24,000 nt of DNA from Bacteroidota bacterium (GTDB lineage: Bacteria > Bacteroidota > Bacteroidia > B-17B0 > Aurantibacillaceae), in the NCBI GenBank assembly GCA_013297775.1, contig JAAFIL010000005.1, positions 127,377 through 151,376 of the forward strand, given 5' to 3'. The position numbers and the translations under genes are program-made. Below are positions 5,151-9,012 of this stretch, piece by piece; position 1 is the stretch's first letter; every line of letters begins with the position of its first letter. The notes beneath the pieces are model-generated. The model was given only the letters and a program-made list of their open reading frames with translations. It did no database searches and was not told where the DNA came from.

Positions 5151-6170
5151 TCAAGTATAACCCTCTGAATACTTAGAAAGTGTATGTTTCATTCTGGATT
5201 GAATTTTTCTTGATAATCGTTTTGGACTTAGAACTTTCACTTGCTCTCCAAAGCCTAATATTTCACGCTCTAATTCAAAATTCCAAATAACCTCAATTGA
5301 AAAGATCGTCCCATCAGGATCTTCTCTTAATATTTTTTGCGAAGCATGTAACGGTTTTGTAATAATGTAAGGAGCGTGTTCTTTAATGATTTTCATCACA
5401 ATTAATTGTGGTGTTTGATTGGGCATTTTCGAAACACCAATAACATCATTAAAATAAGTGCTTACATCAAATTCTGCTTTGCGATATTTCTCAGAACTTA
5501 ATTCTTTGAATTGTTCAATTCTGTCTAGAGCTAAAATCATGGTGGCGTTTCCCTTTCTTTTGGCACCTAACACAAACCATCTATTGCGATACTCTTTCAA
5601 TAGATACGCATAAAACACGATTACCTGCGGCAACCGCGCTTTGAAAGATTGATAAGTAACTTCAATTGTTTTTTTGTTGATAATCGCCTTATGCAAAGGA
5701 TCAATATGTTTTAATCCTTTTAATAGTTCATTCTTTTCAAAATCAATGTATGATTTGCCTTTATGTTGTTGCTTGTAAAGCTTATCCTCTAGCCGAGTTA
5801 CCATACCATTTAACTCCTGAAAATAGCCAAAACCATTAAATTGTTTCAACACATGCAACACCTCGTTTAACGTTCCCAAATCTTGTTGAGTAATGGGCGA
5901 ATTAGTTATGCTATAATTTTTTTCTTCATAGCTGTAATACTTCTTATCTGTAACAACAATAGGCGCATTGTAACCCAGTTTTTCGCTGCGCATATTTTGT
6001 AAATCAAGTTGTATGGCTCGCTTACTAATCCCTTTTGTAATCCCTTCATATTCATATAACGCATCAGAACAGGCTTCCATTAAGTCTTCCAACGTCCATT
6101 TACGAAAACGATTTTGCAAACAATTGTCTATCGTTTTATATCTTACTAAGGCTAATTTATTAATTGGCAT
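5151..6170 (-). CDS. HTH + WYL-domain transcriptional regulator (YafY-like, 339 aa)
   Basis: It has an N-terminal wHTH-like region and a central WYL signature (YAYLLKEYRNRWFVLG). The C-terminal extension is typical of WYL regulators (VKVLSPKRLSRKI). It is divergent from rsr. Confidence 0.8.
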   Translation of the reverse strand: MPINKLALVRYKTIDNCLQNRFRKWTLEDLMEACSDALYEYEGITKGISKRAIQLDLQNMRSEKLGYNAPIVVTDKKYYSYEEKNYSITNSPITQQDLGTLNEVLHVLKQFNGFGYFQELNGMVTRLEDKLYKQQHKGKSYIDFEKNELLKGLKHIDPLHKAIINKKTIEVTYQSFKARLPQVIVFYAYLLKEYRNRWFVLGAKRKGNATMILALDRIEQFKELSSEKYRKAEFDVSTYFNDVIGVSKMPNQTPQLIVMKIIKEHAPYIITKPLHASQKILREDPDGTIFSIEVIWNFELEREILGFGEQVKVLSPKRLSRKIQSRMKHTLSKYSEGYT

Positions 6171-6516: not shown

Positions 6517-8034
6517 ATGAAATTCAATGTCTTTAAAAGAAAAGCAAATGTAGTAAACAACTACGAAGGCGCAAAAGCTTACCAGTTAACTCCTGAAATT
6601 GAATTATACGCTGCTGTAGTAACAGCTGGATTAAGCGATACTTTTTATGAGAAAAGTGATATACGTTTGGCTAGAATACAAACGTTGATGTTGAAGAATA
6701 ATCCTGAGTATGTTGCAAAATTAGCAGTGTATGCGCGTAATGAAATGTACATGAGAAGTATCCCTTTGGTATTAGCTGTCGAGTTGGCCAAATTAAACTC
6801 AGGTAATGTAATTGTAAGTAAAACAGTAAATGGCGTTGTGAAACGTGCAGATGAAATCACGGAACTATTAGCTTACTACCAATTAGCCAATAATAGAAAT
6901 GGCGTTAAAAAATTGAACAAGCTTTCTAAACAAATACAAAAAGGTTTGTCTGAAGCTTTCAATAAATTTGATGAGTATCAATTTGCTAAGTATAACCGTG
7001 CAACTGAAGTAAAATTGCGTGATGCTTTATTTATAGTTCACCCAAAAGCTAAACAAGAATCTCAACAAGAGATATTCAATAAAATAGCTACTAATGGATT
7101 AGCAGTGCCATATACTTGGGAAACTGAATTATCGGCTTTAGGGCAAGTGAAATACGAAAATGAAAAAGTAAAAGCCCATGCGGTTAAAGTAAAATGGAAA
7201 GAGTTGATAGATAGCGGTAAAATAGGCTATATGGCATTGATGAGAAACTTGCGTAACATTTTAGATGCAAATGTATCAGCAGCACATGTTAAAAAAGTGT
7301 GCAACTATTTATCCAATGAAATTGCTGTTGCTAATTCAAAACAATTACCTTTTCGATTCTTGGCCGCTTACCGAGAGATAAAAATTTTAAAATCTGAATA
7401 TGTTACCATGATTTTAAATGCTTTAGAAGATGCAGTAGTTGCAAGTGCAAAAAACCTGAAAGGGTTTGATGAGTCAACAAGAGTATTGATTGCTTGTGAT
7501 GTATCTGGGTCAATGCAAAAAGCAGTATCTGCAAAAAGTAAAGTGATGTTGTTTGACATAGGTTTGATGTTGGGTATGTTGATGCAATCGAAATGTAAAA
7601 GAGTAGTAACCGGAATGTTTGGTGATAACTGGAAAGTGATAAACATGCCAAACCGTGGAGTATTATCAAATGTTGATGAATACTACAAACGAGAAGGTGA
7701 AGTTGGTTACGCAACAAATGGTTATAAAGTGATTGATGATTTAATCAATCGTGGAGTAATGATGGATAAAATAATGTTGTTCACTGACTGCCAATTGTGG
7801 GATGGCAAATTTGGAGGTTCAAGCCTTGAGAAATCATGGATATCCTACAAGCAAATAGTTCCAAATGCAAAATTGTATTTGTTCGATTTGGCAGGTTATG
7901 GCAACACTCCATTAAGTATTCAAAAAGATGATGTCTGCTTAATCGCAGGATGGTCAGATAAAGTGTTTGACGTGTTACATGCTATCGAAAACGGTGAGAG
8001 TGCTATTGAAAAAATCAAACAAGTAATGTTGTAA
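6517..8034 (+). CDS. rsr: Rsr / Ro60-like TROVE-domain protein with C-terminal vWA (MIDAS) domain, 505 aa
   Basis: The N-terminus NYEGAKAYQLTPEIELYAAVVTAGLSDTFYEKSD...YARNEMYMRS is TROVE-like. The C-terminal vWA has the MIDAS motif DVSGSM. Size and domain order match Ro 60-kDa orthologues. Confidence 0.85.
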   Translation: MKFNVFKRKANVVNNYEGAKAYQLTPEIELYAAVVTAGLSDTFYEKSDIRLARIQTLMLKNNPEYVAKLAVYARNEMYMRSIPLVLAVELAKLNSGNVIVSKTVNGVVKRADEITELLAYYQLANNRNGVKKLNKLSKQIQKGLSEAFNKFDEYQFAKYNRATEVKLRDALFIVHPKAKQESQQEIFNKIATNGLAVPYTWETELSALGQVKYENEKVKAHAVKVKWKELIDSGKIGYMALMRNLRNILDANVSAAHVKKVCNYLSNEIAVANSKQLPFRFLAAYREIKILKSEYVTMILNALEDAVVASAKNLKGFDESTRVLIACDVSGSMQKAVSAKSKVMLFDIGLMLGMLMQSKCKRVVTGMFGDNWKVINMPNRGVLSNVDEYYKREGEVGYATNGYKVIDDLINRGVMMDKIMLFTDCQLWDGKFGGSSLEKSWISYKQIVPNAKLYLFDLAGYGNTPLSIQKDDVCLIAGWSDKVFDVLHAIENGESAIEKIKQVML

Positions 8035-8042
8035 TAGAAGCC

Positions 8043-8070
8043 CCCTCTCTGTTAATTTGAACAGAGAGGG
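8043..8070 (+). terminator. Strong hairpin after rsr with a weak U-tract (leaky terminator or processing site)
   Basis: CCCTCTCTGTT (8043-8053) / AACAGAGAGGG (8060-8070) form an 11-bp perfect stem with loop AATTTG. It is followed by TTATAAAAA rather than a T-run. Confidence 0.5.
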
Positions 8071-8108: not shown

Positions 8109-8203
8109 AATGCCGTAGAATCGGAATACATCGCTCGCAACAGGGGAAGGGTCTCAATGCAAATTGGGAAGAGGTGCAAATCCTCATGCGTATCCCCGTT
8201 CTG
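8109..8203 (+). ncRNA. Y-RNA-like unit 1 (divergent)
   Basis: The 5' box is AATGCCGTAGAATCGGAATACATCG. Box residues 8116-8129 can pair with 8190-8203 (TAGAA-T-CGG / CCGTTCTG and ATAC / GTAT). Inside are a 7-bp hairpin capped by GCAA (TCTCAAT-GCAA-ATTGGGA, 8152-8169) and a T-arm-like hairpin (GAGG-TGCAAAT-CCTC, 8171-8185). Alternative registers exist, so the fold is uncertain. Confidence 0.45.
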
Positions 8204-8283: not shown

Positions 8284-8363
8284 GATGCCGTAAATTAGGG
8301 ATACATCGTGGCCAACGCAGGTTCGAATCCTGCTCCTAGAGAAATTTAGGATTTTCCCTTATT
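8284..8363 (+). ncRNA. Y-RNA-like unit 2 (short; T-arm plus one hairpin, no D-arm)
   Basis: The 5' box is GATGCCGTAAATTAGGGATACATCG. The closing helix AATTAGGGA (8293-8301) / TCCCTTATT (8355-8363) pairs at 8 of 9 positions. It has a canonical T-arm GCAGG-TTCGAAT-CCTGC (8317-8333), then the hairpin TCCTA-GAGAAATT-TAGGA (8334-8351). Confidence 0.5.
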
Positions 8364-8391
8364 GCTTTTAGCTCTTTCATAAAATATAAAC

Positions 8392-8503
8392 AGTGTCGTA
8401 AGTAAGAGATACTTCGTTTTAATTTATGTGTCGTTGGTTCGAGTCCAACTTTCATGCAAATGAAATAGCTCAGTGGGTAGAGCAATAAAAAAGACTCTTA
8501 CGG
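8392..8503 (+). ncRNA. Y-RNA-like unit 3: YrlA-style permuted tRNA-like domain on a long bulged helix
   Basis: The 5' box is AGTGTCGTAAGTAAGAGATACTTCG. GTAAGAG (8402-8408) pairs with CTCTTAC (8495-8501), and TTTAT (8423-8427) pairs with ATAAA (8485-8489). The variable region is GTGTC. The T-arm is GTTGG-TTCGAGT-CCAAC (8433-8449). The acceptor-like hairpin is TTTCAT-GCAA-ATGAAA (8450-8465), followed by TA and the D-arm GCTC-AGTGGGTA-GAGC (8468-8483), then A. Confidence 0.65.
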
Positions 8504-8530
8504 ATTTTTACCTGTTTTGAAACAGTGAAT

Positions 8531-8651
8531 GGTGTCGTAGAATAGAGATACTTCGACTTCGGATCGGGCGGACGTGGGTTCGAATCCCATCAAGGTAACA
8601 ACCACTTTAATTACCTTGTAGCTCAGTGGAAGAGCACCTTGTGCTTTATTC
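8531..8651 (+). ncRNA. Y-RNA-like unit 4: circularly permuted, complete tRNA-Arg(UCG)-like cloverleaf inside a closing helix
   Basis: The closing helix is GAATAGAG (8540-8547) / CTTTATTC (8644-8651). The anticodon arm is TTCGA-CTTCGGA-TCGGG (8552-8568), the variable region is CGGAC, and the T-arm is GTGGG-TTCGAAT-CCCAT (8574-8590). The acceptor 3' strand CAAGGTA + A (8591-8598) is joined by a 14-nt loop to the acceptor 5' strand TACCTTG (8612-8618). Then come TA, the D-arm GCTC-AGTGGAA-GAGC (8621-8635) and A26 (8636). Confidence 0.65.
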
Positions 8652-8672
8652 GTTTGTTGCCCATTCATATTT

Positions 8673-8746
8673 CGGTTTATAGCTCAGTTTGGTAGAGCAC
8701 CGTCCTTTTAAGACGGGAGTCCTTGGTTCAAATCCAAGTAGGCCGA
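8673..8746 (+). tRNA. tRNA-Lys (anticodon TTT), AT-rich atypical acceptor, no encoded CCA
   Basis: 74-nt cloverleaf. The acceptor is CGGTTTA/TAGGCCG (C1-G72, two G.U pairs). The D-arm is GCTC-AGTTTGGTA-GAGC, the anticodon arm is CCGTC-CTTTTAA-GACGG, the variable region is GAGTC, and the T-arm is CTTGG-TTCAAAT-CCAAG. The discriminator is A. Confidence 0.75.
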
Positions 8747-8750
8747 CAAA

Positions 8751-8823
8751 GGAAATGTAGTAAAGATGGTCAATGCAGCGGACTGAAAATCCGATGATGT
8801 AGGTTCGAATCCTACCATTTCCA
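8751..8823 (+). tRNA. tRNA-Phe (anticodon GAA)-like, non-canonical
   Basis: 73 nt. The acceptor is GGAAATG/CATTTCC. The D-arm GTAA-AGATGGTCA-ATGC has one mismatch. The anticodon arm GCGGA-CTGAAAA-TCCGA has a G/A mismatch at 27-43. The variable loop is 4 nt, and the T-arm is GTAGG-TTCGAAT-CCTAC. It starts 4 nt after tRNA-Lys. Confidence 0.6.
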
Positions 8824-8832
8824 CAAATACTT

Positions 8833-8905
8833 CGGGAAGTATTTCAATTGTTAGAATGCAGGCTTTGGGAGCTTGTGGTTGCAGGTTCGAGTCCTGCCTT
8901 CCCGA
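8833..8905 (+). tRNA. tRNA-Pro (anticodon TGG)-like, non-canonical D-loop
   Basis: 73 nt. The acceptor is CGGGAAG/CTTCCCG. The D-arm is TTTC-AATTGTTA-GAAT (3 bp, no GG in the loop). The anticodon arm is CAGGC-TTTGGGA-GCTTG, the variable region is TGGTT, and the T-arm is GCAGG-TTCGAGT-CCTGC. The discriminator is A. Confidence 0.55.
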
Positions 8906-8910
8906 CAAAA

Positions 8911-8963
8911 AGTGCCGTACAACATAGTTACTTCGTACTTTTAATATGTTAAATACTATGTTG
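8911..8963 (+). ncRNA. Y-RNA-like unit 5 (minimal: 5' box plus closing helix, no tRNA-like insert)
   Basis: The 5' box is AGTGCCGTACAACATAGTTACTTCG. CAACATAGT (8920-8928) pairs perfectly with ACTATGTTG (8955-8963) around a 26-nt AT-rich insert. Confidence 0.45.
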
Positions 8964-9012
8964 GTTATTTGCCTTTTTAACCGAAATTTTAAGAAATCGG
9001 ACACTTTATAAT

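What the first reader, a model, noticed from the sequence alone, without database searches (positions are those of the whole stretch)
8392..8503. Unit 3 is a textbook-style YrlA-like tRNA mimic with a GNRA-capped acceptor stem
**Seen in the sequence**
- The order is T-arm (GTTGG-TTCGAGT-CCAAC), then a 6-bp acceptor-like stem closed by the GCAA tetraloop, then UA, then the D-arm (GCTC-AGTGGGTA-GAGC), then A26.
- The anticodon-stem equivalent forms in trans between TTTAT (8423-8427) and ATAAA (8485-8489). TTTAT is followed by the 5-nt variable loop GTGTC ending in C48.
- That stem continues into a longer interrupted helix (GTAAGAG / CTCTTAC).
- The same GCAA-capped 7-bp hairpin motif recurs in unit 1 (8152-8169).

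**Established knowledge**
This is the topology reported for the tRNA-like domain of bacterial YrlA Y RNAs. It anchors the interpretation of the whole array.
Basis: partly seen in the sequence, partly recalled or inferred. Interest (0 to 1): 0.6.

Follow-up and report, generated by a model that had tools for sequence, protein, structure and literature searches.

The report
Ro60-linked tRNA-mimic Y RNA
This is a small non-coding "Y RNA" shaped like a rearranged tRNA, encoded just after the bacterial Ro60 (Rsr) gene. It belongs to a known RNA class, here in a Bacteroidota lineage where the standard database threshold misses it.

Summary
Unit 3 is a YrlA-class Y RNA, 358 nt downstream of rsr (TROVE + Ro60 vWA, 6517-8034) and on the same strand.

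- **Rfam:** YrlA (RF02553) aligns full length at 42.6 bits, E 8.7e-8, below the curated cut-off of 69. Orthologues in other loci score 41-54 bits.
- **Covariation:** across 149 distinct related units, 94.9% of cells pair, against 34-49% in slid controls, and 30 of 32 pairs show double changes. The tRNA 15:48 tertiary pair covaries: G:C 105, A:U 37.
- **Independent model:** a model built only from more distant loci (mostly Flavobacterium and Chryseobacterium) finds unit 3 at 111 bits.
- **Linkage to rsr:** in 151 Bacteroidota genomes, all strong hits lie next to a TROVE gene.

Corrections: the RNA is longer than reported (8388-8517), with a 5'/3' basal stem carrying a bulged U. The 5' motif is GYCGUA, not the published GNCGAA. 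The GNRA cap is common among close orthologues but not universal.

Expression and Rsr binding are untested. Verdict: a new member of a known kind, of modest interest. An earlier follow-up in this scan reached the same Y RNA reading for neighbouring unit 4.

The parts
6517..8034 (+). rsr, the bacterial Ro60 orthologue (505 aa); presumed protein partner of the RNA
   Evidence: Pfam TROVE at 2e-28. Ro60 vWA at 7e-4, which is 20.0 bits, below its 27.7-bit cut-off. It is the only TROVE gene in the genome.
8388..8517 (+).
   Evidence: Model hits span 8392-8513. Flanking positions -1:+1 to -5:+5 pair in 146, 144, 145, 132 and 121 of 149 family members, with covariation. In unit 3 these are AAAC (8388-8391) and GUUU (8514-8517).
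8392..8396 (+). 5' strand of the basal helix, A-G-[U bulge]-G-U. It pairs with 8510-8513 (ACCU).
   Evidence: RNAalifold predicts it. Pairs 1:212 (AU 115, GC 32) and 5:209 (UA 82, CG 46, UG 20) covary. The bulged U is invariant, 150/150.
8395..8400 (+). GUCGUA, the family-wide GYCGUA box; candidate Ro60-contact motif. It is a one-base variant of the published GNCGAA.
   Evidence: Occurs 5 times in this locus. C6, G7 and U8 are 145-150 of 150 conserved. The GNCGAA motif is described in PMC4201824.
8402..8408 (+). Long-stem 5' strand GUAAGAG. It pairs with CUCUUAC at 8495-8501.
   Evidence: Helix 2 is 92.3% paired, and all 8 pairs show double changes.
8409..8416 (+). Conserved internal-loop box AUACUUCG. 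It aligns with AUGCUU of the Rfam YrlA consensus.
   Evidence: U, C, U, U, C, G are 145-150 of 150 conserved.
8423..8427 (+). UUUAU, tRNA positions 39-43. It pairs in trans with AUAAA at 8485-8489 (positions 27-31).
   Evidence: Orthologues keep the stem through changes: CUUG/CAAG, GUAU/AUAC, UUGU/ACAA, CUUAU/AUAAG. Helix 3 is 83.3% paired, and all 5 pairs show double changes.
8428..8432 (+). Variable loop GUGUC (positions 44-48); C48 at 8432
   Evidence: The 15:48 pair is G:C in 105, A:U in 37 and an exception in 2 of the 144 units with a letter at position 15; 6 more have a gap there. In unit 3 it is G8473:C8432.
8433..8449 (+). T arm GUUGG-UUCGAGU-CCAAC
   Evidence: Helix 4 is 99.9% paired. 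The loop is near-invariant: U61 150, U62 148, C63 150, R64 (G 127, A 23) and A65 149 of 150.
8450..8465 (+). Closed acceptor-stem equivalent: 6 bp UUUCAU/AUGAAA capped by the GCAA tetraloop (8456-8459)
   Evidence: Helix 5 is 95.8% paired, and all 6 pairs show double changes. GNRA caps occur in 8 of the 10 closest orthologues and in 16 of 150 overall.
8466..8484 (+). U8-A9, then the D arm GCUC-AGUGGGUA-GAGC (8468-8483), then A26
   Evidence: U8 and A14 are invariant at 150/150, G18 is 147, G19 is 129 and A21 is 147. Helix 6 is 98.6% paired.
8284..8374 (+). Unit 2: same 5'/3' stem, T arm only, no D arm
   Evidence: R1 gives 48.7 bits and R2 gives 47.6 bits. 5' box at 8287.
8531..8662 (+). Unit 4: sister Y RNA with a T/AS/D domain plus a cis anticodon-like hairpin
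   Evidence: R2 gives 81.3 bits. Rfam YrlA matches locally at 31.4 bits.
8911..8974 (+). Unit 5: short Y-type stem without a tRNA-like domain
   Evidence: R2 gives 43.8 bits. 5' box at 8914.
8112..8133 (+). 5' box of unit 1. Its body has a GCAA-capped hairpin at 8152-8169. The models do not match it.
   Evidence: There is no R1 or R2 hit.
5151..6170 (-). Divergent WYL/WCX-domain protein; candidate regulator of the locus
   Evidence: Pfam WYL and WCX. A homologue lies upstream of rsr on the opposite strand in 42 of 80 related loci.

Best explanation
**What it is**
Unit 3 (8388-8517, + strand) is a non-coding Y RNA of the YrlA class and the presumed RNA partner of the Rsr/Ro60 protein encoded just upstream.

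**Shown here**
- Its 5' and 3' ends pair into a long interrupted stem: a basal helix with an invariant bulged U, then the GYCGUA box, a 7-bp helix and the AUACUUCG box.
- That stem opens into a circularly permuted tRNA-like domain, ordered as follows: positions 39-43, variable loop, T arm, a closed 6-bp acceptor stem with a GCAA cap, U8-A9, D arm, A26, positions 27-31.
- The bases needed for the tRNA elbow and core are all in place: U8:A14, G15:C48, G18/G19 with the T loop, U54:A58, C13:G22:G46 and A9:A23:U12.

**Inferred from Deinococcus and Salmonella work**
- The conserved basal stem and boxes bind the Ro60 ring.
- The tRNA-shaped module is recognised by tRNA-handling proteins. These could be TruB or Dus modification enzymes, or an effector such as PNPase or an RNA-repair enzyme.
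- In this way the RNA tethers an effector to Rsr or gates Rsr during RNA decay or repair under stress.
- The closed, GNRA-capped 6-bp acceptor stem and the lack of an anticodon loop mean the RNA cannot be charged or decode. It is also probably not cut by RNase P.
For: **Elements, context and Rfam**
- All elements are at the stated coordinates.
- No ORF of 60 aa or more overlaps the unit, and no tRNA is called there.
- rsr ends 358 nt upstream on the same strand.
- Rfam YrlA aligns full length (1-114) at 42.6 bits, E 8.7e-8. Orthologues score 41-54 bits.

**Structure**
- RNAalifold on 7 orthologues recovers the basal, long, T, AS and D helices, with 15 of 27 pairs compensatory.
- On 149 distinct units, 94.9% of cells pair against 34-49% when partners are slid. 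The covariation score is 0.676 against 0.06-0.13.
- The Levitt pair covaries, G:C 105 and A:U 37, as Chen 2014 reported for YrlA.

**Family membership and linkage to rsr**
- Model R2, built without this genome or its closest relatives, hits unit 3 at 111.4 bits, E 6.8e-30.
- In the genome the family occurs only at this locus.
- In 151 sampled Bacteroidota genomes, every hit at E <= 1e-13 lies beside a TROVE gene. None of the 139 TROVE-negative genomes has such a hit.
Against: - Transcription, RNA ends and Rsr binding are therefore all unshown.
- The Rfam score is below the curated threshold, 42.6 against 69.
- The published GNCGAA motif is replaced by GUCGUA.
- Thermodynamic folding of the single sequence is not better than shuffles (z = -1.26).
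- The alignments used for pair counts were fitted to the model, which inflates the percentage paired. The slid controls and the independent RNAalifold run argue that the signal is real.
- rtcB is unlinked here, so the repair link seen in Salmonella does not transfer directly.
Confidence: 0.85

Rival explanations
1. It is a cis-acting structured spacer of an rsr / Y-unit / tRNA polycistron. In this view it serves as a processing signal, transcript stabiliser or terminator-like element rather than as a trans-acting RNP component.
For: - Units are packed 17-18 nt apart and share a strand with rsr and three tRNAs.
- The basal stem is flanked by an A-tract and followed by UGUUUU in most family members, which looks like a terminator.
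- No sigma-70-type promoter match precedes unit 3 on the + strand.
Against: - A spacer or terminator does not need an invariant tRNA elbow, a covarying 15:48 tertiary pair, or conserved GYCGUA and AUACUUCG boxes across orders.
- Co-transcription followed by processing is fully compatible with the Y RNA reading.
Confidence: 0.06
2. It is an Rsr-independent tRNA mimic, for example a decoy or sensor for tRNA-targeting nucleases or tRNA-binding enzymes, that merely travels with rsr.
For: - The locus also carries second, divergent copies of tRNA-Lys(UUU), tRNA-Phe(GAA) and tRNA-Pro(UGG).
- Related loci carry large tRNA arrays beside rsr.
- The effector of the YrlA tRNA module is unknown.
Against: - The most conserved non-tRNA parts, the bulged basal helix and the 5' box, are Y-RNA-like features.
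- Strict co-occurrence with TROVE genes argues for a direct partnership.
Confidence: 0.06
3. It is a decaying remnant of a tandem tRNA junction (the T arm of one tRNA and the D arm of the next), or a permuted pre-tRNA that matures into a working tRNA.
For: - Tandem tRNA junctions do hit the model partially, at positions 20-110 or 34-104, in TROVE-negative genomes.
- Chen 2014 warns of this false-positive class.
- YrlA RNAs are thought to derive from dimeric tRNAs.
Against: - The two acceptor strands pair with each other across a 4-nt GCAA loop.
- There is no anticodon loop, and no flanking tRNA halves.
- ARAGORN and the Rfam tRNA model find no tRNA here.
- The whole 122-130 nt unit, outer stem included, is conserved and covaries.
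Confidence: 0.02

Closest known systems
YrlA RNAs (Rfam RF02553; S. Typhimurium, M. smegmatis and others; Chen et al. 2014 PMC4201824; Wang et al. 2018 bioRxiv 10.1101/312249)
   Same: - It is encoded within 4 kb of rsr on the same strand.
- The order is T arm, closed acceptor-like stem-loop, then D arm.
- The acceptor stem is 6 bp, as in Salmonella.
- The anticodon stem forms in trans and leads into the Ro60-binding stem.
- The D stem GCUC/GAGC and the T loop are conserved.
- The 15:48 pair covaries.
- The Rfam alignment is significant and full length.
   Different: - The score is 42.6 bits against a gathering score of 69. No unit in 23 related Bacteroidota loci reaches the threshold.
- The 5' box is GYCGUA instead of GNCGAA.
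- Both strands of the basal helix are conserved, with an invariant bulged U. In Salmonella and M. smegmatis only the 5' strand is recognisable.
- The cap is a natural GCAA tetraloop.
- There is no V stem-loop.
- rtcBA is not adjacent.
Deinococcus radiodurans Yrn1 and metazoan Y RNAs (RF00019)
   Same: - A terminal 5'/3' stem with a bulged pyrimidine and both strands conserved.
- A partnership with Ro60.
- Several paralogous RNAs encoded next to rsr.
   Different: - Metazoan Y RNAs have no tRNA-like module.
- Yrn1 has a T arm, but with a different order and orientation of the arms.
- Rfam gives no Y_RNA match here.
Circularly permuted tRNA genes (Cyanidioschyzon and some archaea) and band-7-associated tRNA
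   Same: - The T-side half precedes the D-side half.
- The acceptor stem starts as a closed loop.
- The 5' and 3' ends pair at the anticodon stem.
   Different: - Those mature into decoding tRNAs with an anticodon loop and a CCA end.
- Unit 3 has no anticodon loop and only a 4-nt cap on a 6-bp stem.
Unit 4 of the same array (8531-8662) and the Flavobacterium/Chryseobacterium-type units
   Same: The same basal stem, boxes, and T, AS and D arms; they belong to the same covariance-model family.
   Different: - Those carry a cis anticodon-like hairpin and long acceptor-stem loops.
- Unit 3's type lacks the hairpin.
- In each locus tested, unit 3's type is the one that best matches canonical YrlA.

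Membership tests
YrlA (operational definition of Chen et al. 2014) | Within 4 kb of a TROVE/Ro60 gene, on the same strand | tested here: met
   rsr is at 6517-8034 (+) and unit 3 starts at 8388/8392 (+). The same arrangement holds in 80 related loci, where every listed R1 hit is on the rsr strand.
YrlA (operational definition of Chen et al. 2014) | Best Infernal match in the genome, E < 5e-5 | tested here: met
   - The Rfam YrlA model gives E 8.7e-8 for a search space of 2 x 1301 nt x 4227 models. That is about the size of this genome on both strands.
- Unit 3 is the top YrlA match in the 1.3-kb stretch scanned at the E-value threshold.
- Chen's own model was not available, so the Rfam model stands in for it.
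YrlA (Rfam RF02553) | Score at or above the curated gathering threshold (69 bits) | tested here: not met
   42.6 bits. Orthologues score 41.1-53.6 bits. No YrlA hit reaches the gathering threshold in 15 further loci.
YrlA | T stem-loop, then acceptor-like stem-loop, then D stem-loop, with tRNA-like conserved bases | tested here: met
   Helices 4-6 are 96-100% paired with compensatory changes. The T-loop and D-loop bases are near-invariant.
YrlA | Levitt pair 15:48 kept by compensatory change (G:C or A:U) | tested here: met
   G:C in 105, A:U in 37 and an exception in 2 of the 144 units with a letter at position 15; 6 more have a gap there. Unit 3 has G8473:C8432.
YrlA | 5' GNCGAAN0-1G motif (proposed Ro60 contact) | tested here: inconclusive
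   - Unit 3 has GUCGUAAG, with U in place of the first A.
- That position is U in all 150 aligned family members.
- This is a consistent one-base variant. Whether it binds Rsr cannot be tested here.
YrlA | Conserved YUAY at the start of the V loop, or a kink in the AC stem | tested here: inconclusive
   UUAU (8424-8427) lies inside the trans stem. AA at 8421-8422 may be bulged. The Rfam alignment does not match the CUA there.
YrlA / Y RNA in general | Expressed as a stable RNA bound by Rsr/Ro60; modified by TruB and DusA | not testable with these tools
No binding or modification data are available.
tRNA (RF00005) | Cloverleaf in canonical order with an anticodon loop | tested here: not met
   There is no ARAGORN call and no RF00005 match at E <= 10 within 8388-8517.

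The most novel reading that the evidence does not exclude
Unit 3 may be the conserved core member of a Bacteroidota-wide expansion.
- rsr loci carry up to 8 tandem paralogous Y RNAs.
- Their tRNA-like modules differ: some have anticodon-like hairpins and some are permuted at another site.
- They sit with extra divergent tRNAs, or whole tRNA arrays, and a divergent WYL-domain regulator.

Together these could form a Ro60-based tRNA surveillance, decoy or repair system, with each Y RNA mimicking a different tRNA class. The double-stranded, bulged Ro60-binding helix would then link the YrlA type to the metazoan type.
Probability: 0.12. Interest if true: 0.7.

Novelty: new member of a known kind. 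Interest (0 to 1): 0.3.

Why it matters
- It confirms the anchor for reading the whole rsr-linked array as Y RNAs.
- A large Bacteroidota branch of YrlA-class RNAs scores below Rfam's gathering threshold: 354 model hits in 81 loci. Standard annotation would therefore leave these loci blank.
- The branch has an unusually well-defined Ro60-binding stem, with both strands conserved, a bulged U and a GYCGUA box. Flavobacterium and Chryseobacterium could serve as experimental hosts for testing what the tRNA-like module recruits.
- For unit 3 itself the biology is what published YrlA work would predict.

Tried and rejected
- **Single-sequence folding.** It gave no significant stability. It chose an alternative register (UCGUAAG/CUUACGG) and a GAUAC/GUGUC hairpin. 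I did not adopt either, because both would pair the family-conserved GYCGUA and AUACUUCG boxes.
- **MAFFT alignment of 28 mixed units.** It mixed architectures and misaligned the 3' strand of the trans stem. I replaced it with a 7-orthologue alignment plus model-based realignment.
- **Cis anticodon hairpin in unit 3, as in unit 4.** By inspection, only 3 of 5 pairs could form. The trans stem has 5 of 5 and covaries, so I rejected the hairpin.
- **Pairing of UUUU (8417-8420) with AAAG (8490-8493).** It is possible but has no covariation support, so I left it as an internal loop.
- **Supplementary tables of Chen 2014.** They are not held. I could not check whether any Bacteroidota YrlA was already listed.
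- **Promoter scan.** The sigma-70 scan is uninformative for Bacteroidota promoters.
- **Literature link between tRNA arrays and Ro60.** The search found nothing.

Full report
**Observation**

- T arm at 8433-8449.
- UUUCAU-GCAA-AUGAAA hairpin at 8450-8465.
- UA at 8466-8467.
- D arm at 8468-8483, then A8484.
- UUUAU (8423-8427) opposite AUAAA (8485-8489).
- Variable loop GUGUC (8428-8432).
- GUAAGAG (8402-8408) opposite CUCUUAC (8495-8501).
- GCAA-capped 7-bp hairpin of unit 1 at 8152-8169.

No ORF of 60 aa or more overlaps the unit. ARAGORN and the Rfam tRNA model call no tRNA there.

**Context**

- The window is contig C74 of a 4.35-Mb, 37% GC genome. Its Rsr relatives are all from Bacteroidota, and the closest are MAGs labelled Chitinophaga or Bacteroidetes.
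- The ORF at 6517-8034 (+) has a TROVE domain and a weak Ro60 vWA match, below the Pfam cut-off. It is the only TROVE gene in the genome.
- A WYL/WCX protein is encoded divergently at 5151-6170. A homologue sits upstream of rsr on the opposite strand in 42 of 80 related loci.
- Downstream of rsr, five units share the 5' box GYCGUA-N7-9-WUACWUCG, at 8112, 8287, 8395, 8534 and 8914. Apart from three isolated matches to the loose pattern on other contigs, the box occurs only here, and the model matches only this locus.
- Three tRNAs (Lys-UUU, Phe-GAA, Pro-UGG) lie between units 4 and 5.
- rtcB exists but is on another contig.

- At the gathering threshold, Rfam reports only tRNAs in the window.
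- At an E-value threshold, YrlA (RF02553) aligns over its full length (1-114) to 8402-8504 at 42.6 bits, E 8.7e-8. It also aligns locally to unit 4 at 31.4 bits.
- The search space of that call is close to one model against the whole genome on both strands. The hit would therefore pass the E < 5e-5 criterion used by the discoverers.
- It does not pass Rfam's curated 69 bits.
- Orthologues of unit 3 in four other loci also give full-length YrlA alignments, at 41-54 bits. No unit in 15 further loci reaches the gathering threshold.

**Comparative evidence**

- *Related loci.* The Rsr protein retrieved 80 related loci from Chitinophagales-like MAGs, Flavobacterium, Chryseobacterium, Saprospiraceae, Cytophagales and others. 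Nearly all carry 1-6 copies of the 5' box downstream of rsr. By a simple pattern screen, 61 of these units have a T-arm motif followed by a D-arm motif.
- *RNAalifold.* On seven orthologues of unit 3, it independently predicts a basal helix with a bulged U, the long stem, and the T, acceptor-like and D helices. Fifteen of 27 pairs show compensatory changes.
- *First model.* A covariance model built from these seven finds 354 matches at E <= 1e-3 in 81 sources. All 300 listed matches lie on the rsr strand.
- *Pair counts.* On the best 150 matches (149 distinct), 94.9% of cells are standard pairs, against 34-49% when the 3' partners are slid. Thirty of 32 pairs show changes on both sides. The covariation score is 0.676 against 0.06-0.13. 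These alignments are fitted to the model, which inflates the percentage paired. The slid controls and the unfitted RNAalifold result point the same way.
- *Trans stem.* It is the weakest helix (83% paired) but is kept through changes in close orthologues: CUUG/CAAG, GUAU/AUAC, UUGU/ACAA, CUUAU/AUAAG.
- *Levitt pair.* The tertiary 15:48 pair is G:C in 105 units and A:U in 37, with two exceptions. This is the same covariation Chen et al. used to argue for a tRNA fold.
- *tRNA bases.* U8 and A14 are invariant, and G18, G19, A21 and the UUCRA of the T loop are nearly so. By inspection, unit 3 also has C13:G22:G46, A9:A23:U12 and A26/G44.
- *Independent model.* Model R2 was built only from the 48 best units of 57 more distant loci (L015-L079, mostly Flavobacterium and Chryseobacterium). 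It hits unit 3 at 111.4 bits, E 6.8e-30, full length, with a single non-standard pair.

**Link to Rsr**

In an even sample of 151 Bacteroidota genomes, 12 have a TROVE gene. Every R2 hit at E <= 1e-13 lies within about 2 kb of one of these genes on the same strand. Nine genomes have such hits. The 139 TROVE-negative genomes have none, only weaker matches (E 1e-10 or worse), most of them partial and probably tandem tRNA junctions. Chen et al. warned of this false-positive class.

**Corrections and additions**

- The unit is longer than reported. The 3' strand of the basal helix lies at 8510-8513.
- The five positions flanking each side also pair, in 146, 144, 145, 132 and 121 of 149 units, with AT, CG, TA and GC alternation. 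For unit 3 this adds AAAC (8388-8391) and GUUU (8514-8517).
- The terminal stem therefore has about 8 bp and an invariant bulged U (8394), with both strands conserved. In this it resembles Deinococcus and metazoan Y RNAs more than Salmonella YrlA, where only the 5' strand is recognisable.
- The 5' box is GYCGUA in all 150 members, not GNCGAA.
- The AUACUUCG box aligns with AUGCUU of the Rfam consensus.
- A GNRA tetraloop caps the acceptor-like stem in 8 of the 10 closest orthologues, but in only 16 of 150 family members. Others have loops of up to 29 nt.
- Unit 3 lacks the cis anticodon-like hairpin seen in unit 4 and in many Flavobacterium and Chryseobacterium units. That makes it the most canonical YrlA-like unit of the array.

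**Mechanism**

Shown here: a conserved, covarying structure, its tRNA-like tertiary signature, and strict genomic linkage to rsr.

Inferred from the literature:
- The basal stem and boxes bind the Ro60 ring.
- The L-shaped module is recognised by tRNA-handling proteins and recruits or gates an effector such as PNPase or an RNA-repair enzyme.
- The closed 6-bp stem makes it a poor RNase P substrate and rules out CCA addition or charging.

Not shown: transcription, RNA ends, Rsr binding and modifications.

**Novelty**

YrlA RNAs were reported in more than 250 species of at least 10 phyla, and adjacency of Y RNAs to tRNA genes is already noted. I could not check whether any Bacteroidota entries were in the original tables. 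Unit 3 is therefore a new, divergent member of a known class. The main practical point is that this whole branch scores below Rfam's threshold. An earlier follow-up in this scan reached a compatible conclusion for unit 4.

Noticed in passing
window 8673-8906: tRNA-Lys(UUU), Phe(GAA) and Pro(UGG) inside the Y RNA array are second copies. They are only 63-69% identical to the housekeeping Lys, Phe and Pro tRNAs on other contigs. None encodes CCA, and each is followed by CAA(A), as are the housekeeping Phe and Pro copies.
   Followed up: partly
L002, L003, L075, L078, L001 (within 4 kb of rsr): Arrays of 6-10 tRNA genes lie next to rsr on its strand in several Bacteroidota loci. Examples: 9 upstream and 8 downstream in L002, and 10 upstream in L075. 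No paper linking tRNA arrays to Ro60 was found.
   Followed up: partly
L001:6062-6187 and L010:7494-7620: These Y-type units have the same 5' box and outer stem, but by eye the tRNA-like domain seems permuted at a different site. The D-arm halves (UAGCUCAGU ... GUAGAGC) lie at the ends of the insert, and a full anticodon arm lies inside.
   Followed up: no
L046:6993-8746 and L056:6557-7612: Chryseobacterium loci carry eight tandem model hits downstream of rsr. That is more than the 1-4 Y RNAs I recall being described per bacterium.
   Followed up: no
L012 near 5941, L047 near 5605, L065 near 5977: ARAGORN calls 'tRNAs' (Asn-GUU, Glu-UUC, Lys-UUU) that start at the 5' end of Y units. Those units carry a 7-nt anticodon-like loop on a short cis hairpin.
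   Followed up: partly
window 5151-6170 (-): A homologue of this WYL/WCX-domain protein lies upstream of rsr on the opposite strand in 42 of 80 related loci, at 44-97% identity. It is a candidate sensor or regulator, possibly analogous to RtcR in Salmonella.
   Followed up: partly
window 8043-8070: An 11-bp GC-rich hairpin (CCCTCTCTGTT...AACAGAGAGGG) sits 9 nt after the rsr stop codon. The scan scored it as terminator-like on the minus strand only. It could separate rsr from the RNA array or serve as a processing site.
   Followed up: no
flanks of 149 family units (e.g. window 8378-8391 and 8514-8525): Units are preceded by an A-rich tract ending in CA and followed by UGUUUU and then an A-rich tract. 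The U-run directly after the closing stem looks terminator-like.
   Followed up: partly
L061:5600-5689 (-): A sub-threshold match to Flavo-1 RNA (RF01705), 38.1 bits against a gathering score of 42, lies just downstream of rsr on the opposite strand.
   Followed up: no
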